A program made the position numbers and the translations under genes. From the human T2T-CHM13v2.0 reference genome, Homo sapiens, in NCBI RefSeq assembly GCF_009914755.1, contig NC_060946.1: DNA of 64,000 nucleotides; one strand, given 5' to 3'. Positions 10,806-33,486 of this stretch are shown one piece after another (position 1 is the stretch's first letter; each line of letters opens with the position of its first letter). Below the pieces are notes generated by a model. That model did no database searches. It saw only the letters and a program-made list of their open reading frames with translations, and was not told the DNA's origin.

Positions 10806-11715
10806 GGACCTTCAGAGACAGTCTACGCCTTAACAAGCACATGAAGGAAACTATTTTGAATGTTCTCTTTGGCAACTTATCCATAATTTGGGATCAAATG
10901 TTAAAACCAGAAAAGTGTTTAGTGTGGATTTCAGCAAAACCTGATCATCCCACCCAGAAGACCTTCTCATCAATAGATCGCCCTTAAAGACCCATTGTAA
11001 GGTCATAAAAAACCTCGGCCAACTGCACAAAGATGGTGCCTCACTGCAACAAGAAACCTTAAGGTGTCTTACCGACGAAATAAAAAACATAAATGATTGT
11101 TCTCCAAGGCCTGAGGGCAAGACTCATGATGAGCAAGTCAACCCCAATCTGGAACAATGTCCCTCCTCTTAGAATGTCCCAACTAAAGACCAGTTAAAAT
11201 ATTAGGGTACGTTCTTGTGAATTTCCACTTTCCAGGTAGATGACCAAATTTAGGTGGTCAAGATATAAAGGTGACAGCTAGTTTTAAGTGTGAAACTTAT
11301 TTCACTTTCACACTGCCTTCAGGCCAGAAGCAAACCAAATTTACCAGGTTTGGCTGGAGGAGTTTTGTGACTCATCTTTTACTGGTTTGAATTTTTTCAA
11401 ACCAGTGGCTGATACCTGCCTTGTACTTAGTACCTTAATACCAATAACCTAATGGTACTTAGGCGAGTACCATTTGCACAATCACTGTTTTACTTATGAG
11501 CAGATACAGATATATCCAAACCCTTACCTACTAGGTATCCTGCTAGGGTTTTCAATTCCAATTCTTGTATTAAGTTTTTTCCTTTCAGTTTTAGGTGCGA
11601 AAGTAATCAGTCAATCCAATATCCCCCATCTTTGTCTTGAAACAAAAACTGTTTTAAGACGTCTACGTTGAATTATTCAGAGAATTAAGCAATAAAAGCT
11701 CACACCTTATTGTCA
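10806..11715 (+). other. KDELR3: KDELR3 3'UTR (end approximate)
   Basis: From stop codon to AATAAA 11691-11696; a proximal AATAAA lies at 11079-11084. Confidence 0.85.
11691..11696 (+). terminator. KDELR3: KDELR3 poly(A) signal
   Basis: AATAAA followed by GT/T-rich tgtcaacagtgtttttattt. Confidence 0.85.
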
Positions 11716-14200
11716 ACAGTGTTTTTATTTATACCTACAAAAAGAAAACAAGATGATGGTATCAAAAGGACAATTTACAAACTAAGAATAGTAACATAGC
11801 TTTCAGCATCCTGTGCCTGAACATCACACATCTACAAGTCTTTCAAGTCTTAATGCAACAGGAATGTGTCTGGAGACCAGCAAGAACATCAATAGAGAGC
11901 ACTGATCCCAAGCAAAAGCCACTAACCTTTTAGATGAGAAGTCCACACAACAAATTGTTAGGGAGGATTGGGGAGAAGCAGCCCATTGCTTAATACATTG
12001 GAACCCTTTCCCTAAGTTGAGTTTCAACCATGAATGCAATAACTAGCATAAAACGATTCTTCTGCTCATGTTCTGAAGCCAACAGCAGAACCTGAATTAT
12101 AAGTGACAGACATGGAGGCAGAAGAGTTAAACTCTGCTAGATTTCAGCTGTGCTCAGGCCATAATAGTTTTTGAGGTTTGGAATTTACTGTTATTTTATG
12201 ATTGCAATGTCCCAGGTGGAAAAAGGGAAGCAAGCAATCCAAATAACCACTTGCTTGCCCAGAGACCTTTCCCTCAAACAGATGCTTTCAAGAGCTGCGA
12301 GAGAGTAGGGCATCCCTTGTGGTGGTACCTCTATGTTTAAAGAAAGAAGAAAAAAACCCAGATTTGGTTGTAGAAAACAATGCCCACAACAGACTGGCCA
12401 GTGCTTAGACAAATTTGGGGTTGGGGGGAACACTTTGGTTTGAAAGCACAGAGCAGTTTGCCATGTTTCTTCTGTGCCTACCATTCTCCCTTGGCCTCAA
12501 CTTCTGTAAGATGGGGGGGGACAAAAAGAGAAGTAAAGTTAAGAAGAAAGTGGAAAATTAAAAAAAAAGATGTCAAAGTTTTTACATGCATATATTTCAG
12601 CTTATGCTGAAGACCTACCTGTATGTTGCACATTGAATCATACTTTCAGAACCCCTCAGAAACCATCCCTCTCTCCCTAAAGAATTTTAAAAGGAAAACA
12701 AAACCTCGAGTATAGATCTTACAGATGAGCAAGCATTCAGGCCTTAGCCAAAGAATGCAGTGGAGCCTTCCCCCTTCAACTGCATTGTGAATGAATACCA
12801 ATTAACAGCATAAAAATTAATAGTCCCATATCAGATCTGGAAGGGGTTTCTGGGGCTGTCTGATGTCCCTATCCTGTTGTAGTGAACACAATAGCAGAAA
12901 ATTCTTTCTGGGTCCATCTGCTATAAAGTCTTGGTAAAACAGCATTACTATGAAGAGGATGAACTCACCTACCTTCAGATGGAGGAAAAGTGAAAAGGAC
13001 TTAGGCTTTAGTCCTCCATGACTTTTCTTAAGCACTACCTACCTGTAATAAGCTGAGTGCAAAAGGATGCCGAAGAAAATCTGCACCCAGAAGCTGTTAG
13101 AAAGCACTGCAGAGAACAGGGTATGAAGAAAATAAAGAGTTCTTAATAAACCCTTAAGATTCTTTGTTCAAGGTAACTTTGCCAAAAGGGCAGAGTAGGT
13201 GGCAAAGAGTTGCTTTTAATCTAGCTCTACACTGCATTTGAAAATAAAATTTGCCCATTTTGAATATATTGTTTATAATTAAATGTGCTTTTTACACTGC
13301 AGGTCAATATAAAAACTGGTTAGTAAATTTCCAGCGAGCATTTATGTTCATTTGCTCACAGCAGCTGTCTGGATGGAAAATTAATTTCACAGATGGTCCC
13401 CAGTTAAACTGGGAAGAAATATAGGCAGCTTCCACCCAGATGCTGAGATGCTACAGTTTAACCACTACAATAAACACTTGTGGTTTTTAATTTAAAGGAT
13501 ACACAAAACTCAGCAATTCAATTTCTAGCCTGACACTAAAATGGTTATTTTTCAGTAACGGGGGGAGAAGTGGGGAGGCAGAGTGTGAAGGGAAATAAAA
13601 CCAATTAGTAATTTTTAACTATCAAATGCACTCCAGCAATCAGTCAAAACAGGCCCGAGGAAACCTGTTCCAACTTAAGAAACATTTAAAAGCACAAAAG
13701 AAAATGTGCAGGGCAATCCCTCTTTGTTTTCTAACCCAGTAATGAGAAATTTAAAGCACAGATGCCATCTTCCTCTGCAAAACAATTCAGCCCTCCCCCT
13801 CCCTCCCTCCCCACCAACTCAGAAAAACAAAACATGGGGCTCCCACAAAAGGGCCTAATACCTTACTCTTTTAGATGAAAAATAGCTCAAATATCTTCAA
13901 CATGCAAGAAGTTGGGGGAAGAAATTAATCTCTTCCAGTCAGCTATATATATATATATATATATTTTTTTTTTACAAAATGTTATTCCAGACTGGATCAT
14001 TTTGGTGGGCAGAAGAAACCTGGCAGTGAATTCTAACTAATCTGCATGAAAAGACAAATCACGATGGTTGGGGGGAAAAATTAAAAAAAAAAAAAAGAAA
14101 AAAGGAAAAAAAAAGAAAAGGCGAAGAGGAAAAAAAAAGGAAAGACAGTGTTCCTTAAAATGTAATTAAGTCTGCTGGAGTCACTACCACTTGAGTGGTT
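11706..14200 (-). other. DDX17: DDX17 long 3'UTR (about 2.5 kb, no recognisable interspersed repeats)
   Basis: Between TGA 14201-14203 and the poly(A) signal; U-rich tract 14083-14140 and (AT)n near 13945-13963. Confidence 0.85.
11724..11729 (-). terminator. DDX17: DDX17 distal poly(A) signal
   Basis: tttatt on + = AATAAA on -; TGTA just upstream and GTGTG...TTTTATT downstream on -. Confidence 0.85.
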
Positions 14201-14706: not shown

Positions 14707-15156
14707 CTAATGGGAAGATACAAGAAGATTTTTAATGGCAGATATAGGACCTAAACATAACAATGTAAAAATTCTACTGGGTACAAAAGTATTAAACATG
14801 TCTCCTTGATATTTAGTTATGCTGGCCAGCCTCCCAATTAGTACTGTAAAAATATACTCATAATTTGATTCTTTAATGGGGCACATTCAAAAGCACAGTA
14901 AAAATTAAAGGACACTAGACCTTTTCACCCTTTTAGGCCCCTTACTTGAGGATGATCAAGAAACACGGTATTACAATATGAAACCTTGAGTCAGGAAGCC
15001 CAGATCCTAGGATATTCTGCAACTGTAGATGCAACTGCTATGTCTCAGTTTCTACCCACCACTAAACAGTGTAAAATGACTGACCTCTCCGTATGGAAAA
15101 CTGGAAACCTAATATACTACTAAGCATTTTTGAAAGTATTAAAAAAGCAACCATGA

Positions 15157-15946
<790 letters not shown>

Positions 15947-16144: not shown

Positions 16145-16381
16145 CCCCGCCTCCGCCGCCTCCTCTGTGGTCCACAAGCTGCATCAGTTTTGGATTGATA
16201 GCCTGATTGGCCTCTTCCAGCACTTTGATAAGCTCTCTGGCCTGTTTTAGGTTCCCTGGGGTGAAGAAGGTATAGGCGGTACCCTTGTTGGTGCTACGGG
16301 CTGTTCGGCCAATACGGTGCACATAATCCTCTGAGCTGTTTGGATAGTCATAGTTGATCACAAACTTGACATCTTCCACAT
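16145..16381 (-). CDS. DDX17: DDX17 exon 12 (237 nt; 243 nt with the alternative donor, exon end 16139)
   Basis: [29 protein letters not shown] (motif VI)...HRGGGGGG; acceptor gaag|AT, donors G|gtaagg and G|gtaagt. Confidence 0.95.
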
Positions 16382-19300
16382 CTTCCACGTCAATGATGAG
16401 TCAGTGTGTAGGTTGATGTGGCAGGGAAAGAGAAGGTAAAGGACATGCCAACAACAGGTGGGAAGCACGAATGCAGATGACAGCAAGAGGAAAGAAGGTG
16501 AAGTTAGTAACCACTCTGAACAGAAACAAAAAAAGACTCATCCCAACAGAGTAAAAGAGGATTACTGATTCCTGGGACATGCATAGGAAATAGGATCTTT
16601 ATTGGCTGTAGAATCCTAAGGGAATCCCATCCAAACATCCAAACTCCTGCCTCTGCTACATTTTACCAATATACTGACAGGAGTTACACCAATATTGGTC
16701 TTCAGACGCAAATTCCAGTACTATCCTTTACAAAACCAGAACATAGAACAAAGTGGTAAACCACTGTGAAGTTATGAGGCCAAATCACTTCTACTCTGTT
16801 GGGAGAAGCCTGGCAAAATCTACCAACAACATAACAAACTTACCTTTAAACCAGTCACAGAGCAAAGTAAAAAAAGGAGCTTCATATATTTTATTACTAC
16901 AATTTAAAGGAAACTTAAATGTTTTGATTAACATTTAACTTTTTTTGCTCTTATCTTTTTAAGAAACTGAGTAGAGCCAAAGCTGTTAAGTACACACCTA
17001 TTTTCCTTTGCAGAAACATCCAGATTATCTATCCCCTTTCAATTACAAGAGCACATTACACTAAAATTTTACTGTACTACCAAGCCCAGCTTCTGCCAAA
17101 ATGAGGATATTTTTGCTCAACTCAAGGTTATTTCAACTCAGGACTTGTTTCAATTATCAATGATTGTCTACGTGACCTGGGAAATTAAATTAATAGCCAA
17201 AGAACGTGGGAAAACCATGAAACCTTGAGACACAAGTTTAGTATTCTCTCTACTGCTGGGAATTGGGCTGAATAACCTCCTAAGGCTTAAAATGTAAATG
17301 TTAGTGTAATGCTTTCAGCTGAATGTATATTTTTACCTACTTAAACAAACAATTTTAAGAATATAACAAAGAATCCTACTGTTTTGTGGAAAAAAATCTG
17401 CATTTTACAAAGAATATTCAGAAAATATCCTAGATAAAACACAGATTTTTGTGATATAAATAATTAAAAAACATTCTCTGTTTGTTACCAGACCGATGCA
17501 CACTCCCTCCTCCTTTGGGAAACCGCTGCAGCCGATCCCGTCTCTTTGCCTTTTATTTTTGGCGGCCTCCTTTCGAAAACTCCGCCTTCTGACACGGGAC
17601 CACTGGAGCGCGGGGAGCATGCATCAAGGGTCCGTGGCAGTGAGAAGTCCCCACACACGCTCGCTCTGTGAACTGGCTTAGATGCTTCTCTGTAGCCCCA
17701 TTTGGTTGCCAAGCGCCGGAGAACCTGGGTTCGGGTAAAAATTTCAGGTCCTCCAACGCCTCCCCCAAGGATAATTGGGGTGATTGTAGAAAAAAATAAT
17801 TAATAAAAAAAAATGTAAGTTACATCCAAAGGGTCAGACTGCATCTATTGCCCAGACTGGATTAATTTCAAGGGAGAAAGGGGAGATCAAAAAAAAAAAA
17901 TTAGCTGTTGTTACAGGGCTTGTGAAGAAGGGGCATTATGTCTGTTTCTTATTACAATAAAGGCTCCTCGGTCTTTACTGACCCCTAAAGTCCTGAATCA
18001 CACCAGAAAGACGAGAAGGCACTTATCACAGGGGGCAGCTTGAGTCTCCGGCTAGGGTCGTTGACGCAACAAAGGAAAAAAGAATTTACAGGGCCAGGGT
18101 GGATGTAAGACAGGGGGTGGGGAATTCTACTCCATGGTATCTTCAGAGCTAGGATAATGCTCCTTATGCAATCCCACTGCATATGACCATGGCAGTAGAA
18201 CAAGTTCAATTACTACACTGGATGCGTTAAGTGTGCTTTCCTAGCAGAAAGCACCAGGGTGGAGTCAACAGTTCACATGCTAATACTTGGAAGTATTTCT
18301 AGAAGGGGGTGCTCAATAGAGGGCAGACATGATGCAAGTTCTTCATACTAGAAAGGTGTCCTGTGTGTGCATGCACAGCTGGATGGGGGCACACAGGAGC
18401 AAGCGCAGAATTTGGTTTTCTCCAGTCAAGTCTACCCTGATGTTATCTGTGCACTGCCACAATATTATCTTGCTGCCTTTCTAGAAGATGCTGTAGCAGG
18501 GTAAGAAATCCAAAGTTAATGTTTTGGCCAGCTGACTGGGATAAGAACCTTTTGTCTGAAAGGCCCTATGACATGGCCTGAATCGCCAATCACTAATAAG
18601 GAGGGACTAAGTCTAGCCAAGAGGCTCATCTAGAGCTGCTTCCGGCCAATGTAGATTTGTCTCGGCCATGTATTGAGTGATCTGCAGCTGATATCAAAGC
18701 TTCTGTTAAAAAACAAAACAAAATAAATTCAATACTTTTAGTTTAACAGTGTGTAGTTCAAACAAAAAAAAGGAAAAATAAAAAATATCCCAGTGGAAAG
18801 GGAAGTGGTAGCCTAAGGATGACTATTATAAAATTATGGGAATCAAAGAACTTACCTGAAGGGAACATTTAAGAGACCATCGCTTGACAGGAAGTGAAAA
18901 AAGGCCCTGGTGACTCAGCTGAAAATTGCACCCCTGTCTATGAGGTAGAAGCCTTCACTTTCCAGGATCTTGTAGGACATTGGTCAGAATTCTGCCATTT
19001 TGGTGGGTTTTCTCCCTCTTTTGATTTTTTACAAGGCAGCAAACAAAGGGGCCCAAAACAAGCACTGATGTTGAGTAACAAGAAACAGACTCGGGTACCT
19101 TCCCTCTCCCCTCACTTGGATGAGTGGGGGTGGGATGAAGAGTCTAAGTTATTCTAATGGTAGCCAATTAATTTGGTTTAGAAATGCAAGGGGACATGGA
19201 GCAAATATTTTTAATTGTCTAGGCAAGATGCACAAAGAAGCTACCAGCACATAGCAAGCCTGTTTAAAAACCAACCATTACTGAAAGCTTTATGTAAACT

Positions 19301-20321
19301 GCTTTCAGGCCTCCGCCTCCTCTCCCAACAGGCCCAAGTTCTAATGGCACAGATCCAGACATGACCTCAGAGGGCAGAGGGGCAGAGAGAACTTTCCATC
19401 ATGGCTGCAGGTCACCACCTCTGAAGGAGGGAATGATGAGTGCAATGCATAAAAAGGCTTCATTACTTTTGTATTCCAGTTTGAATACCTGTTCTCTTTA
19501 TATTATATAGTATAAGGGAATAATATGGTACTTCTCACCTTACTGGGCAAATTAAATACCTGTCAATAATTTAAGGATTTCCTTGTAATACAAATAATCT
19601 TTTTTTTTAAAATATAGAAGTTCTGAGTTAGACCTGTTTAGCTCAGAATAGTGGGCTAAACTACCATAAAATTCTCTGTATATCTTAAATGGTAATGGGT
19701 CAAAAACTCCAGAAAATCATCAGTTGATAACACACCTACAGATAAGTGCATGGGTAGGAGGGGATAGCCAAGTGCCCATGATAATTTGACCTCAGTAAAT
19801 TAAACTGGGCAATACACATATTTGCTATTCTGATACTGCATTAGACTTATAAAATTCCATCTAATAAGCATTCATAAAACTGGACCTCTCTGTATATATC
19901 TAGCTTAGACAGGGATAGGGAAAAGAATAACTGAAGAAACTAGCTTACAATAGCTAGGTTTCGTCAGGCTTATTCTATCCAGCCAGAAACCACCACCAGA
20001 GAGAAGCTGAGCCATTCAGCTGTCTGTCTCCTCTCCCTCTGTTTGAATAGTCATGCCTAGGCCTTGCTGCAGACCAAAGCCTGTTTGTTAGGAGCAGGAA
20101 GAGACTTTGAAAATAAAAGGGGGGTGGGGGAAACCAAAGTTAAAAAAAATTGTGGGGGGGGCAGGGAATGGGGAGAATCACGCTTTGTATTTTTTTCTTT
20201 CAAATATTTATCTAACCACATGTATATACAACTTTCTAAACTTGAAGTCTGAATTTGAAATGACGAATCTTTAAACCAAAAGATACATATACCATTGACA
20301 GAGACACCTATCTATACAAAC

Positions 20322-20381
20322 CTAGCCCACGGGAGGCTACATCTGTAGCAATAAGGATGGGTGCCTTTCCAGAACGGAACT
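20322..20381 (-). CDS. DDX17: DDX17 exon 11 (60 nt)
   Basis: acag|AG TTC CGT ... GGG CTA G|gtttgt; EFRSGKAPILIATDVASRGL (motif V). Confidence 0.96.
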
Positions 20382-20744: not shown

Positions 20745-21903
<1,159 letters not shown>

Positions 21904-22870: not shown

Positions 22871-23719
<849 letters not shown>

Positions 23720-24053
23720 TAGCCAGGATGGTCCCAATCTCTGGACCTCGTGATCCGCCCACCTCGGCCTCCCAAAGTGCTGGGATTACAGGCGTGAGCC
23801 ACCGCACTGGCCCAGAGAAGCTAAATTTTAACAAAGTAACCGCAAAACCATGTCAGGACTTATGTACAATCACCAAATCCTCACAAAGTTTCCAGCCATG
23901 CTGAACCTTCTCTCTCAAAATAGCTGTTTTAGTCACATCTGAGAATTTCTAAGCTGCTGAAATTCTGAGTTTATCACAAGAACCCACTTTTTTTCTCCAA
24001 TTTCCTCCACAGGAATTGGTAAAGTAAGATAAACTAACAATTCTTTTACACTA

Positions 24054-24290
<237 letters not shown>

Positions 24291-24803
24291 CTAATTTAAT
24301 TCTTTGCTGTCTAATCTAGCACATTAAAAGTGATGGGGTGAAGATCAGAAGTGGGGAATATTAGCACAATGGAATATAGAAAAAAATTATTAGAACTTCA
24401 TGTTTAGCATTTGGAATGATACTGGTATCCTCGTCACTTTTACTATGACACATTATCAATCATTATAGTTTATATATACTGTTTAAGTGGAGATATAGAT
24501 TGTATTACCTGGTTTTAAGTATACAACTCTCATTTACAGGTTGAGCATCCTAAACCCCCAAAACCAAAATGCTCCAGCAAGCATTTACTTTGAGGATCAT
24601 ATTGGTCCTCAAAATTTGGATTTGTTTTGTTTTCTGAGACAAAGTCTCACTCTATCGCCCAGGCTGGAGTGCAGTGGTGCAATGAAGGCTCACTGTAACC
24701 TCTGCTTCCTGGGTTCAAATGATTCTCCTGCGCCTCAGCCTCCTGAGTAGCTGGGACTAGAGGCAGGCACCACCATGCCCAGCTAATTATTGTATTTTTG
24801 TAG

Positions 24804-24947
<144 letters not shown>

Positions 24948-25306
24948 TGACTTAAACTGGCAGAATGACACATTCCTGACCTCTAATTTAAGCACATCAC
25001 CAGGTAGATAAGGCAAAAACAATGAAAATTTACATGTAATCTGACAAGACTGTGTACAATCTGGCCAAATAATACAAAAATCAAGGTATCATATACCATT
25101 CAAATTAAATTATGAAACTTGCTTTATATACTGATCCATTAGATATCAACTAATAATAATGCTGTCAGACATATACTATGTATTATAAGTACTGCATTAT
25201 TTCTTTTTGTGAATATCTTGAGACATATTGTACATGTTCATAAATATATAGGACAAATGCAAGCTTATTTCTTAAAAAAGTTAAGTAGGCCGGGCGTGGT
25301 GGCTCA

Positions 25307-25978
<672 letters not shown>

Positions 25979-26855: not shown

Positions 26856-27668
26856 TTATTTTGCGTATTTTATTGTGTTTAAAGACACAAACCAAGAGTT
26901 TTTAAAAAAACTTTTAAGCTCACTGAAGATAAGATTTACCCAGCTTCATCTCTCCAAAGTGCTTTTTCTTTATCTACTAGATCTCCGACCAACTCACTGT
27001 TAGCTTCTAAGGGCCAGGCTAGGTGGCTCACGCCTGTAATCCCATCACTTTGGGAGGCTGAGGCCAGTGGAGGCCAGGAGTTCCAGACCAGCCTGGTCAA
27101 CATGGTGAACCCTGTCTCTACTAAAAATACAAAAATTAGCCAGAGTGGTGGTGGGCCCTTGTAATTCCAGCTACTCGGGAGGGTGAAGCAGAATCGCATG
27201 AACCCAGGAGGCGGAGGAGGTAGTGAGCTGAGATCGCGCCACTGCACTTCAGCCTGGGTGACAACGTTGAGACTCCGTTTCCAAAAACAAACAAACAAAA
27301 GCTGCTACAATAGTCTACCTCTCCCAGAAATTTGAAAAACCATTACCCTAAAGCATCTAACAGGACATGGGAACATGGTAGTCATTTATTGTTTAGCAAA
27401 TTCACATTATATCCAGCTAGAAAGCAATTTCATTCTGCTGTTTTCTAAAAGGCAGAGGGCAAAACCCTAGAAAAAGACAAAAACCTCAAAAAAACAAAAC
27501 AAAAACAAAACCTCAGTCTAAATACTAGAACAGAACTGATGACCATAAAAACAATCTCTTGTCCTTTCAACAAAACCCCAAGCCTGGCTCAAAGAGTTTA
27601 ACCTACTACCCTTGTCTCCCATTCAACCCAATTTAACAAATTAAGGTTCTAGATTGAAGAACACTTAC

Positions 27669-27768
27669 GTGGGAAGTTAGCATGATGGAAGGCAAACACG
27701 GGTTTAGGACAAACATCTCCCCCCCTCACTGTAATCTCCTTCTTTCGGCGTAGCTCATCAACCTCATA
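27669..27768 (-). CDS. DDX17: DDX17 exon 3 (100 nt)
   Basis: tag|TAT GAG GTT ... CCA C|gtaag; YEVDELRRKKEITVRGGDVCPKPVFAFHHANFP. Confidence 0.96.
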
Positions 27769-27982
27769 CTATTGAAAAAAAATGAAAGTTAGTAAACTAG
27801 TTATTCTAAACATTCAGAATTTATGTTCCAAGCTAGCTGAGCAATTATCCAGTCCACAGCTATGTTGGCAAATATTTAATAGTTTACATGGTACTTTCAT
27901 GTGTATCACTTTAACTCTGCAAGGCTCCTACTTACTTTGTAAGTTAATTAATGATGTAGGTGATTAAGAGTTCCATTTTCTA

Positions 27983-28434
<452 letters not shown>

Positions 28435-28813
28435 TCACCTCAAAAAAAAAAAAAAAGCCAATCTATCTTTTTCACTAACAGATGAAAAAACATGACCTAA
28501 TATACAATATTTCAATCATGTATAATAAACAGATTAGTAAGCATTATCAACAAGAGAACAAATTAAATGCATATTTAAACTGGTCCCCTTTTATGAGTAT
28601 TAGGGGTCTTAGATAAGAATGTAAGAAAGGCTGGGCATGGTGGCTCACACCCATAATCCCAGCACTTTGGGAGGCTGAGGCGGGCAGATCACAAGGTCAG
28701 GAGACGGAGACCAGTCTGATCAACATGGTGAAACCCTGACTCTTGCACTCCAGCCTGGGTGACAGAGCAAGATTCCGTCTCAAAAATAAAAAGAGGCTGG
28801 GCGTGGTGGCTCA

Positions 28814-29252
<439 letters not shown>

Positions 29253-30375: not shown

Positions 30376-30507
<132 letters not shown>

Positions 30508-30513
30508 TTACTA

Positions 30514-30672
<159 letters not shown>

Positions 30673-33159: not shown

Positions 33160-33486
<327 letters not shown>

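What the first reader, a model, noticed from the sequence alone, without database searches (positions are those of the whole stretch)
16382..20321. Whole-intron system: a repeat-free 3.9-kb regulatory intron splitting helicase motifs V and VI
In a window crowded with Alus, this intron has no recognisable interspersed repeat. It combines a weak donor (G|gtttgt), several PTC/decoy exons, a multi-stem RNA element with AAUAAA, an AG|GTAAGT site, a distal branch point and a non-consensus acceptor. Intron 11 retention and DDX5/DDX17 cross-regulation are known in general. The proposed mechanism is inference: the helicase remodels a structure in its own intron to choose between splicing, nuclear detention, NMD and early 3' end formation.
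Basis: partly seen in the sequence, partly recalled or inferred. Interest (0 to 1): 0.8.

Follow-up and report, generated by a model that had tools for sequence, protein, structure and literature searches.

The report
DDX17 regulatory intron with poison exon
This is the known slow-splicing regulatory intron of the human RNA helicase gene DDX17, and its documented "poison" exon has both splice sites buried in unusually stable predicted RNA hairpins, which suggests but does not prove that the helicase senses its own activity there.

Summary
Window 16382-20321 (minus strand) is DDX17 intron 11, cutting helicase motif V (…ASRGL|D…) ahead of motif VI. It is single-copy in the genome. Its donor is G|GUUUGU. 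The acceptor is purine-rich, with UACUAAC 122 nt upstream and a 130-nt AG-free zone. It holds two AG|GUAAGU sites.

That exon showed PSI below 0.01 in control cells and 0.84-0.99 after a splicing modulator (PMC12894984 supplement).

This covers the conserved DBP2/DDX5 intron, partially spliced p72 transcripts cleared on p68 knock-down, and a plant hairpin that senses helicase activity.

I did not find the following in print:
- A 17-bp hairpin buries the poison exon's 3' splice site, and 19 bp of helix close its 5' splice site.
- The three most structured of 53 intron windows all lie at this exon.
- The donor lies in an exon-intron hairpin that DDX5 shares.
- An 18-mer occurs exactly twice in 3.1 Gb, in DDX17 and DDX5 intron 11.

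Helicase sensing and early 3' end formation remain inference, and AAUAAA occurs at chance frequency. No orthologues could be fetched. Interest is moderate.

The parts
16382..20321 (-). DDX17 intron 11, 3940 nt, phase 1, splitting ...ASRGL|D VEDVKF...HRIGRTAR. It has no detectable interspersed repeat.
20315..20347 (-). Exon 11/donor hairpin. Donor positions +1..+7 (GUUUGUA) pair with exon UACAGAU, and an inner 6-bp helix joins UAGCCU and GGGCUA. The same hairpin forms in DDX5, with an A x A mismatch at +4.
   Evidence: the 92-nt context gives z -2.07, with 5 of 200 shuffles as stable; this donor has the lowest unpaired probability (0.11) of the 12 constitutive donors.
20050..20067 (-). 18-mer GCAAGGCCTAGGCATGAC at intron nt 255-272. 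It is shared exactly with DDX5 intron 11 (nt 133-150) and contains GCAUG, UAGG and the palindrome GCCUAGGC. It lies directly after a 3'ss-like cugcag.
   Evidence: 34.6 bits against a maximum of 29.2 in 100 shuffles; exactly 2 exact matches in 3.1 Gb, both on the sense strand of these introns, and 0 for the reversed control..
18850..18857 (-). AG|GUAAGU preceded by a pyrimidine tract (uguucccuucag|guaagu). It has the form of a recursive-splice or decoy 5' splice site. With the upstream 3'ss (ccuuuuuucacuuccugucaag|C) it bounds a candidate 27-nt exon, 18882-18856, with an in-frame UAA after 4 codons.
   Evidence: No transcript support was found: the filtered HCT116 rMATS table held 0 events in that part of the intron.
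17711..17761 (-). Hairpin A. An uninterrupted 17-bp helix (AGGCGUUGGAGGACCUG x CAGGUUCUCCGGCGCUU; 9 GC, 4 GU) with a 17-nt loop. The poison exon's 3'ss AG (17726-17725) and its first 14 nt lie in the 3' arm.
   Evidence: -28.3 kcal/mol, z -3.96, 0 of 200 shuffles; ties for second-longest local helix in the 22.9-kb pre-mRNA; the AG has unpaired probability 0.001.
17489..17724 (-). Documented poison exon (hg38 chr22:38489223/8-38489458). The 3'ss is at 17724 or 17689 and the 5'ss at 17494 (UCG|gucugg) or 17489 (CUG|guaaca). The main forms reach an in-frame UAA after 15 codons. CpG o/e is 0.77, against 0.15 in the rest of the intron.
   Evidence: PMC12894984 supplementary file 6: PSI 0.003-0.007 in control, 0.84-0.99 with Y-33075. 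(frames). (CpG).
17488..17636 (-). Multi-stem domain B inside the poison exon. A 13-bp helix (17625-17613 x 17507-17495) and a 6-bp helix (17634-17629 x 17494-17489) close over both alternative 5' splice sites. AAUAAA (17557-17552) lies in an internal loop.
   Evidence: -67.9 kcal/mol, z -4.64, 0 of 200 shuffles; the 5'ss at 17494 has unpaired probability 0.09, lower than all 12 constitutive donors.
17389..17453 (-). Hairpin C. An AU-rich, near-perfect 26-bp hairpin that starts 36 nt downstream of the poison exon.
   Evidence: I1..: -23.2 kcal/mol, z -7.0, 0 of 200 shuffles.
16838..16845 (-). Second AG|GUAAGU site (uuuaaag|guaaguuu).
16503..16509 (-). UACUAAC, a branch-point consensus, with the branch A at 16504, 122 nt upstream of the acceptor. 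It is followed by a 77%-pyrimidine tract.
   Evidence: Branch usage was not tested.
16382..16513 (-). The 130-nt AG-free zone plus the acceptor AG (16383-16382), ending in the purine-rich gacguggaag|A.
16371..16388 (-). Tandem 9-nt repeat GTGGAAGAT x2 across the acceptor. It places a second, in-frame AG 9 nt downstream, at 16374-16373.
   Evidence: Use of this AG is not known.

Best explanation
DDX17 intron 11 is the DDX17 copy of the ancient DBP2/DDX5 regulatory intron. It works as a splicing switch that limits helicase output.

The intron is built to splice slowly. Its weak +3U donor is held in an exon-intron hairpin. Its branch point lies 122 nt from a purine-rich acceptor.

It also carries a poison exon (17724-17494/17489) that is normally invisible, because its 3' splice site lies in a 17-bp hairpin and its 5' splice site is closed by 19 bp of helix.

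When these structures are opened, the exon is defined. It is then either included, which gives a stop after 15 codons and nonsense-mediated decay, or it engages the outer splice sites unproductively, which gives intron retention. Either outcome lowers productive DDX17 mRNA. [quoted passage not shown]

I think the most likely opener is DDX5/DDX17 helicase activity itself.

Shown: the exon, its stop codon, its strong inducibility, and the loss of partially spliced p72 RNA with a rise in mature mRNA on p68 knock-down.

Inferred: that the predicted structures form in cells, that they suppress the exon, and that DDX5/DDX17 open them.
For: Position and phase are identical in DDX17 and DDX5: CTAG|gt...ag|ATGTGGAAGATG.

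From passages of PMC4695336: the S. pombe and S. cerevisiae dbp2/DBP2 introns are conserved with respect to position and length. They splice poorly and lower mRNA. Retention in S. cerevisiae is relieved in a helicase-dead mutant.

From passages of PMC1920232: p68 knock-down clears partially spliced p72/p82 RNA and raises the mature mRNA. The authors propose an intron-mediated mechanism.

The poison exon's coordinates and PSI values come from PMC12894984 supplementary file 6. They were mapped through three exon anchors, and the mapped boundaries carry AG and GT.

Structure:
- The 361-nt region folds with z -4.51, 0 of 100 shuffles as stable.
- Hairpin A has z -3.96, domain B z -4.64 and hairpin C z -7.0, each with 0 of 200 shuffles as stable.
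- In an unbiased scan of 303 windows across the pre-mRNA, the 3 lowest of the 53 intron-11 windows all lie at the exon (-3.76, -3.85, -3.87). Gene-wide, only 2 windows scored lower (-4.31, -4.06) and one tied at -3.87; all three lie in Alu-containing stretches.
- Hairpin A ties for second-longest local helix in 22.9 kb and is by far the most GC-rich of the long ones.

Constraint proxy: 15 of the intron's 38 CpGs lie in the 236-nt exon, giving o/e 0.77 against 0.15 elsewhere.

Ancient shared elements: the 18-mer is unique to the two paralogous introns. Both paralogs share the +3U donor hairpin and a long AG-free zone.

Against: No orthologue could be fetched, so no covariation or conservation test was possible for any helix.

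Predicted burial of an AG is not unusual in this gene: 3 of 12 constitutive acceptor AGs also have unpaired probability of 0.06 or less.

DDX5 intron 11 has no detectable homologue of the poison exon or of hairpin A. If DDX5 is regulated through its intron, it uses other means.

DEAD-box proteins unwind about 10-15 bp efficiently, according to the plant preprint. Hairpin A has 17 bp.

The only documented inducers of the exon are kinase-type small molecules, not helicase dose.

A different p68-to-p72 route, through the 3' UTR and NMD, has direct reporter evidence (PMC3763533).

The exon region meets common CpG-island criteria as I recall them (longer than 200 bp, GC 0.58, o/e 0.77). Its CpG retention could therefore reflect hypomethylation rather than RNA-level constraint.
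Confidence: 0.5

Rival explanations
1. This is an ordinary poison exon of an RNA-binding-protein gene. Its inclusion is set by the SR-protein/kinase network (CLK, DYRK and similar) and by general splicing load. The hairpins only keep basal inclusion low, and DDX5/DDX17 activity plays no direct part.
For: The exon goes from PSI below 0.01 to 0.84-0.99 with Y-33075, together with 29 other poison exons, including those of OGT, SRSF3 and HNRNPDL (30 of the 31 significantly affected were promoted). DDX17 'exon skipping' is among the top events after the DYRK1A inhibitor EHT1610. The exon's own splice sites are weak: UCG|gucugg, CUG|guaaca and a short pyrimidine tract.
Against: This does not explain why p68 knock-down specifically clears partially spliced p72 RNA. 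It also does not explain why the strongest local structure in the intron lies exactly on both splice sites, or the yeast and plant precedents in the same helicase subfamily.
Confidence: 0.3
2. The intron is merely slow and leaky. The real DDX5-to-DDX17 control acts on the mature mRNA through the long 3' UTR and Upf3-dependent NMD. Changes in the intron-containing RNA are secondary.
For: EGFP reporters carrying the DDX17 3' UTR rise two- to four-fold on DDX5/17 or UPF1 knock-down, and Ddx5 binds these mRNAs in RNA immunoprecipitation (PMC3763533).
Against: A 3' UTR route does not predict loss of partially spliced nuclear RNA on p68 knock-down. It does not account for the poison exon, its structure or the paralog-shared intronic elements. 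The two routes can coexist.
Confidence: 0.12
3. The GC- and CpG-rich block at 17489-17764 is mainly a DNA-level element, an orphan CpG island acting as an intragenic promoter or enhancer. The RNA structure is a by-product of its composition.
For: GC is 0.58 and CpG o/e 0.76-0.77 over 236-276 bp, against 0.15 for the rest of the intron.
Against: The z-scores are against dinucleotide-preserving shuffles, so composition is controlled. The block is spliced as an exon with exact AG/GT borders. The hub's RefSeq functional-element list has no entry in the intron.
Confidence: 0.05

Closest known systems
Yeast DBP2 / S. pombe dbp2 intron 2 (conserved autoregulatory or decay-promoting intron of the DDX5/Dbp2 subfamily)
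   Same: It is described as conserved with respect to position and length. It splices poorly and lowers mRNA output. In S. cerevisiae, retention is relieved in a helicase-dead mutant (passages of PMC4695336; Barta & Iggo 1995 is cited there but was not held). DDX17 and DDX5 share position, phase, +3U donor hairpin and long AG-free zone.
   Different: The yeast introns act through retention and nuclear decay (Mmi1/exosome in S. pombe), not through a cassette poison exon.
Human DDX5 (p68) intron 11
   Same: It is the paralogous intron, with the same junctions. It shares the exact 18-mer about 130-250 nt into the intron, the donor hairpin and the distal branch-point architecture. Retention and p68 control are reported for both genes.
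   Different: It is 1236 nt rather than 3940 nt. It ends in the mir-3064 hairpin (Rfam RF03840, 100.4 bits), which DDX17 lacks: the DDX17 intron has no Rfam hit and its 3' end is unstructured (z +0.69). No homologue of the DDX17 poison exon or hairpin A was found in DDX5.
Plant DEAD motif in DRH1/RH46 (Burgardt et al., bioRxiv 10.64898/2026.01.23.701338)
   Same: [quoted passage not shown] Use of that site gives cassette-exon, alt-3' and retention variants, all with PTCs. It forms a negative feedback loop that also acts on the paralog.
   Different: The plant stem is 19-20 bp with a 3-5 nt loop, and the authors describe it as plant-specific. The human stem is 17 bp with a 17-nt loop and has a second structure over the 5' splice site. 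There is no evidence of common descent. The human helicase dependence is untested.
Poison exons of splicing regulators (SR proteins, OGT, SMNDC1, RBM39)
   Same: A cassette exon with an in-frame stop, normally skipped, strongly inducible, and lying in a regulator of RNA processing.
   Different: In those cases the sensor is usually sequence-specific binding of the protein itself. Here the proposed sensed quantity is RNA-unwinding activity.
Tau exon 10 5' splice-site stem-loop modulated by DDX5 (Kar et al. 2011; seen only as a reference entry in the plant preprint and as a table entry in a review)
   Same: A donor is held in a hairpin whose opening by DDX5 changes splice-site use. The exon 11 donor hairpin here is comparable.
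   Different: The DDX17 donor hairpin is only marginally more stable than shuffles (z -2.07), and its exon arm is constrained by coding.

Membership tests
DBP2/DDX5-type conserved regulatory intron | Intron at the same codon position in the helicase core, inside motif V and before motif VI | tested here: met
   DDX17 and DDX5 have identical junctions and phase. Identity with the yeast position rests on PMC4695336 passages about DDX5 and was not tested on yeast sequence.
DBP2/DDX5-type conserved regulatory intron | Inefficient splicing, with intron-containing transcripts accumulating | not testable with these tools
   Reported for p72/p82 in HeLa cells (PMC1920232). Ddx17 is listed among conserved intron-retaining orthologues, with the intron not named (PMC5688624). 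The sequence features fit: weak structured donor and distal branch point.
DBP2/DDX5-type conserved regulatory intron | Output depends on the helicase protein or its activity | not testable with these tools
   p68 knock-down clears partially spliced p72 RNA and raises the mRNA. The authors note that an indirect effect is not excluded.
Poison exon (alternative splicing coupled to NMD) | Cassette exon with AG/GT borders, seen in transcripts | tested here: met
   The borders acccag|G and UCG|gu / CUG|gu lie at the coordinates mapped from the rMATS rows.
Poison exon (alternative splicing coupled to NMD) | In-frame stop upstream of later exon junctions | tested here: met
   The stop comes after 15 codons (forms with 3'ss at 17724) or 45 codons (forms with 3'ss at 17689). 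Exons 12 and 13 follow.
Poison exon (alternative splicing coupled to NMD) | The isoform is stabilised when NMD is blocked | not tested
   No such data were seen. Total DDX17 transcript falls when the exon is included.
Poison exon (alternative splicing coupled to NMD) | High cross-species conservation | not testable with these tools
   No vertebrate genomes are held. The only proxy is CpG o/e of 0.77 against 0.15.
Plant DEAD-motif helicase sensor | Single hairpin with a 19-20 bp stem and a 3-5 nt loop | tested here: not met
   The human hairpin has a 17-bp stem and a 17-nt loop.
Plant DEAD-motif helicase sensor | [quoted passage not shown] | tested here: met
   The AG at 17726-17725 forms the second and third pairs from the base of the 3' arm. 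The PTC is shown.
Plant DEAD-motif helicase sensor | Splice choice shifts with helicase activity and with stem mutations | not testable with these tools
   This needs minigene and rescue experiments.
Recursive splice site (ratchet point) | Pyrimidine tract + AG directly joined to GUAAGU | tested here: met
   uguucccuucag|guaagu at 18857-18850. Whether the site is used could not be tested. The intron is far shorter than the long introns in which I recall vertebrate recursion being described.
Intronic polyadenylation site | AAUAAA above chance, with a downstream U/GU-rich element | tested here: not met
   The intron holds 3 AATAAA, about the number its composition predicts by my own estimate, with no shuffle control. 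By eye, the 40 nt after 17552 are G-rich, not U/GU-rich. No 3'-end data were seen.
Intronic miRNA host (as in DDX5 intron 11) | Match to an Rfam miRNA family | tested here: not met
   There are 0 Rfam matches at E<=1 in 16382-20321. DDX5 gives mir-3064 at 100.4 bits.

The most novel reading that the evidence does not exclude
Human DDX17 carries a structural sensor of DDX5/DDX17 unwinding activity that is functionally equivalent to the plant DEAD hairpin but built independently. A 17-bp hairpin hides the 3' splice site of a poison exon and a 19-bp closure hides its 5' splice site. Helicase activity would then be read out directly as exon definition, followed by NMD or intron retention. Together with the yeast DBP2 intron, this would make 'the helicase measures itself on a structured intron' a recurring solution across eukaryotes. 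The 18-mer found only in DDX5 and DDX17 intron 11 would be a second element, presumably predating the gene duplication, of the same circuit.
Probability: 0.3. Interest if true: 0.7.

Novelty: new member of a known kind. Interest (0 to 1): 0.42.

Why it matters
DDX5 and DDX17 set thousands of splicing, miRNA and transcription-termination outcomes. Their dose matters: they are overexpressed in cancers, and de novo DDX17 variants cause a neurodevelopmental disorder (abstract listing).

How cells hold the summed activity of the two paralogs constant is not settled. The published routes are an undefined 'intron-mediated' effect and 3' UTR-dependent NMD.

This analysis supplies a defined cis element: the exact stems, splice sites and an 18-nt motif shared by the paralogs. 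That turns the question into a few clean minigene, antisense-oligonucleotide and structure-probing experiments. It also gives antisense targets for raising or lowering DDX17.

If the hairpins turn out to be helicase sensors, the same logic would exist in plants, yeast and humans.

Tried and rejected
1. A long-range duplex between the 18-mer region and 18827-18811 (inverted repeat I6). The duplex energy is -23.3 kcal/mol, but at least 6 other tiles of the intron pair as well or better, down to -25.0. It is not more than chance.

2. An upstream mimic of the hairpin's 5' arm at 19332-19298. It pairs with the 3' arm at -23.7 against -31.3 kcal/mol for the local arm. It is not compelling.

3. AAUAAA as a premature 3'-end signal. 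Its frequency is at chance and no downstream element is visible.

4. The DDX17 core motif RCAYCH (PMC6953907). The intron holds 11 copies, about what the motif's degeneracy predicts by my own estimate, and one lies in the exon at 17685. This is uninformative.

5. A DDX17 counterpart of the DDX5 mir-3064 hairpin. The last 134 nt of the DDX17 intron fold no better than shuffles (z +0.69, 151 of 200 shuffles as stable). The alignment of the two 3' ends is weak.

6. Other homology between the two introns. blastn with word size 7 found nothing above the shuffle maximum except the 18-mer. The 321-nt exon region matched only itself in the genome.

7. Splice-site accessibility as a discriminator. The poison exon's AG is buried (0.001), but so are 3 of 12 constitutive AGs.

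8. Further cassette exons. The filtered HCT116 rMATS table has 0 events at hg38 38490xxx or 38491xxx, so the 27-nt and 118-nt candidates stay hypothetical.

9. The supplement of PMC9458439 (DDX5/17 knock-down), as stored and cut, names DDX17 only in legends.

10. Raw-MFE ranking of 60-nt windows is dominated by the promoter CpG island and Alus and is not useful.

12. Papers not held: Moore 2011, Rössler 2000, Barta & Iggo 1995 and Felker 2023. Lee 2018 was blocked by the paper cap.

13. Literature searches for a human DDX17 hairpin or poison-exon sensor found none. They cover open-access PMC and bioRxiv only.


Full report
**What is there**

On the minus strand, window 20321..16382 is DDX17 intron 11 (3940 nt). 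Exon 11 ends ...ATDVASRGL and exon 12 begins (D)VEDVKF...HRIGRTAR. The intron therefore interrupts motif V just before motif VI, in phase 1.

- **Donor.** It is TAG|GUUUGU, the only one of the 12 DDX17 donors with a pyrimidine at +3. By simple U1-match count it scores 6/9, the same as 6 other donors.
- **Acceptor.** It is gacguggaag|A, and the last 12 nt before the AG are only 42% pyrimidine.
- **AG-free zone.** The nearest upstream AG is 130 nt away. This is the longest AG-free zone of the 12 introns; the next longest is 85 nt.
- **Branch point.** A perfect UACUAAC lies at 16509-16503, which puts the branch A 122 nt from the acceptor. A 77%-pyrimidine tract follows it.
- **AG|GUAAGU.** Two copies lie at 18857-18850 and 16845-16838. 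The whole 64-kb window has 4 on both strands, against 2.1 +/- 1.55 expected.

**Repeat-free**

An Rfam scan at E<=1 of 11000-35000 gave 54 matches, all of Alu/7SL type or Alu-derived miRNA families. None lies inside the intron.

The whole intron searched against the 3.1-Gb genome found only itself, 1 candidate. The same search with the Alu-bearing intron 10 gave 10770 candidates and 89 matches. Ancient, strongly diverged repeats cannot be excluded at this sensitivity.

**The structured AAUAAA element lies inside a known poison exon**

Supplementary file 6 of PMC12894984 lists a DDX17 cassette exon at hg38 chr22:38489228-38489458. It is annotated there as PE1 (38489223-38489458) from an earlier poison-exon catalogue. 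It lies between exon 11 and exon 12.

Exons 10, 11 and 12 all map to the window with one constant offset, which puts the exon at 17724-17494/17489. The mapped borders read acccag|G, UCG|gucugg and CUG|guaaca. A second 3' splice site at 17689 also appears in the table.

PSI was 0.003-0.007 in control HCT116 cells and 0.84-0.99 with the compound Y-33075. Total DDX17 transcript fell.

The reading frame reaches UAA after 15 codons in the main forms. In the 17689 forms it stops after 45 codons.

The exon holds 15 of the intron's 38 CpGs. Its CpG o/e is 0.77, against 0.15 for the rest of the intron.

AAUAAA at 17557 lies inside this exon. With 3 copies in 3940 nt the hexamer is about as frequent as the intron's composition predicts, by my own estimate and without a shuffle control. 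By eye I see no U/GU-rich element after it.

**Structure**

The 361 nt around the exon fold with z -4.51, and 0 of 100 shuffles are as stable. Three elements stand out.

- **(A) Hairpin over the 3' splice site.** An uninterrupted 17-bp hairpin pairs 17761-17745 with 17727-17711, with a 17-nt loop. Its 3' arm contains the exon's 3'ss AG and the first 14 exon bases. Energy is -28.3 kcal/mol, z -3.96, 0 of 200 shuffles.
- **(B) Multi-stem domain, 17636-17488.** Energy is -67.9 kcal/mol, z -4.64, 0 of 200 shuffles. Its closing 13-bp and 6-bp helices cover both alternative 5' splice sites.
- **(C) AU-rich 26-bp hairpin, 17453-17389.** It starts 36 nt downstream of the exon. z is -7.0, 0 of 200 shuffles.

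In an unbiased scan of the pre-mRNA (303 windows of 150 nt), the three lowest z-scores of the 53 intron-11 windows all fall on this exon and its flanks: -3.76, -3.85 and -3.87. Gene-wide, two windows scored lower (-4.31, -4.06) and one tied at -3.87. All three lie in Alu-containing stretches.

Hairpin A ties for the second-longest local helix in 22.9 kb and is the most GC-rich of the long helices.

One caution applies. Predicted burial of an acceptor AG is not unusual in this gene, because 3 of 12 constitutive AGs are also at 0.06 or below. The poison exon's 5'ss (0.09) and the intron-11 donor (0.11) are, however, the two least accessible donors examined.

**Comparison with the paralog**

No vertebrate orthologues can be reached with these tools, so I used DDX5 from the same genome. 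DDX5 intron 11 is 1236 nt and has identical junctions: CTAG|guuagu ... ccuuacag|ATGTGGAAGATG.

It shares four things with DDX17.

- **The +3U donor.** I recall +3U as rare among human donors.
- **The donor hairpin.** Donor +1..+7 pairs with the exon sequence UACAGAU, and the +3 U makes a wobble pair. DDX5 has an A x A mismatch at +4 where DDX17 has a pair. The DDX17 context gives z -2.07 and the DDX5 context +1.18, so this is modest evidence. The exon arm is also constrained by coding.
- **A long AG-free zone.** DDX5 has 107 nt, with CUAAC at -78.
- **An exact 18-mer, GCAAGGCCTAGGCATGAC.** It lies 255 nt (DDX17) and 133 nt (DDX5) into the intron. It was the only blastn hit above 100 shuffles, at 34.6 bits against a maximum of 29.2. 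It has exactly two exact matches in the whole genome, these two, both on the sense strand. Four one-mismatch hits lie elsewhere, and the reversed control gave none.

The 18-mer's function is unknown. It contains GCAUG, UAGG and an 8-nt palindrome. I recall the first two as RBFOX-type and hnRNP A1-type motifs; that reading comes from no call. I found no unique pairing partner for it.

The paralogs also differ. DDX5 ends its intron with the mir-3064 hairpin (Rfam, 100.4 bits). It has no detectable counterpart of the poison exon or of hairpin A. DDX17 has no Rfam hit in the intron, and its 3' end is unstructured.

**What is already in print**

I read passages of these papers, not whole papers.

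- **PMC1920232.** p68 knock-down raises p72/p82 protein and mRNA and clears the partially spliced p72 RNA. The authors propose an intron-mediated mechanism like that of yeast Dbp2p.
- **PMC4695336.** The S. pombe dbp2 intron is conserved in position and length, splices poorly and promotes decay. Retention in S. cerevisiae is relieved in a helicase-dead mutant. DDX5 carries the conserved intron.
- **PMC3763533.** Ddx5 drives NMD of Ddx17 mRNA through the 3' UTR.
- **PMC5688624.** Ddx5 and Ddx17 are among conserved intron-retaining genes.
- **bioRxiv 10.64898/2026.01.23.701338.** In plants a 19-20-bp hairpin named DEAD lies in a long intron of the DDX5-like DRH1/RH46 genes and hides an alternative 3' splice site. 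Unwinding shifts splicing to PTC variants. Helicase-dead mutants are much weaker.

Seven full-text searches found no description of a hairpin over the human DDX17 poison exon. Subscription papers, and the papers that were not held (Moore 2011, Rössler 2000, Barta & Iggo 1995, Felker 2023, Lee 2018), may bear on this.

**Most likely mechanism**

The intron is a slow, switchable unit. With the stems closed, the poison exon is invisible and the intron is removed whole, despite its weak ends. With the stems opened, the exon is defined. It is then either included, which leads to NMD, or it acts as a decoy that stalls the outer splice sites, which leads to retention. I put DDX5/DDX17 activity as the opener.

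This direction fits the 2007 knock-down result, in which less p68 gave less partially spliced RNA and more mRNA. It also fits the plant and yeast precedents.

The exon, its stop codon, its inducibility and the knock-down effect are shown. Formation of the structures in cells, their repressive role and the helicase dependence are inferred.

My confidence that this is a poison-exon and retention switch is high. My confidence that it senses helicase activity through these stems is about one in three. The composite figure I give is 0.5.

**Rivals**

- An ordinary poison exon governed by the SR-protein/kinase network. The only documented inducers are kinase-type compounds.
- The 3' UTR/NMD route is the real cross-regulation.
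- The GC-rich block is a small CpG island with a DNA-level role.

Nuclear detention could not be tested.

**Verdict**

The system belongs to a known kind, and much of it is already described.

The added value is a precise, testable cis-architecture and a paralog-unique 18-mer. Interest is moderate (0.42). If the hairpins prove to be helicase sensors, the finding would rank clearly higher.

Noticed in passing
L008:4030-4096 (minus strand; DDX5 intron 11, last ~66 nt): An Rfam mir-3064 precursor (RF03840, 100.4 bits, E 8.8e-25) fills the space between the distal branch-point-like CUAAC and the DDX5 exon 12 acceptor. The homologous stretch of DDX17 has no hairpin (z +0.69).
   Followed up: partly
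window 16371-16388 (minus strand): A tandem 9-nt repeat, GTGGAAGAT x2, straddles the DDX17 exon 12 acceptor. A second AG lies 9 nt downstream in frame, and using it would remove three codons. DDX5 has a single copy after a normal ccuuacag acceptor.
   Followed up: no
window 17389-17453 (minus strand): A near-perfect AU-rich 26-bp hairpin (z -7.0) lies just downstream of the poison exon. It is single-copy in the genome search and has no Rfam match. Its role is unknown; it could be a splicing-regulatory structure or a small-RNA precursor.
   Followed up: partly
window 13346-13495 (minus strand; DDX17 3' UTR): This 150-nt window has z -3.64, the fourth lowest of the 118 windows scanned in the 3' half of the gene. 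The 3' UTR is the region reported to confer Ddx5-dependent NMD.
   Followed up: no
L008, DDX5 intron 11 about 109 nt upstream of exon 12: The rMATS table of PMC12894984 lists a longer DDX5 exon 12 (hg38 64500548-64500882). This is an alternative 3' splice site at uuuugcag|CCCG, the AG that bounds the DDX5 AG-free zone. It adds 109 nt and shifts the frame.
   Followed up: partly
window 11707-11716: According to the hub's gene table, the 3' ends of KDELR3 (+ strand, ends at 11716) and DDX17 (- strand, ends at 11707) overlap tail to tail by 10 bases.
   Followed up: no
window 15156-15886, 20768-21755, 23425-25945, 27013-29227, 30393-30654, 33185-33466: Sub-threshold Rfam hits to Metazoa_SRP, mir-1268, mir-3135, mir-1285 and mir-1303 mark Alu elements in the other DDX17 introns. 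They are ordinary.
   Followed up: no
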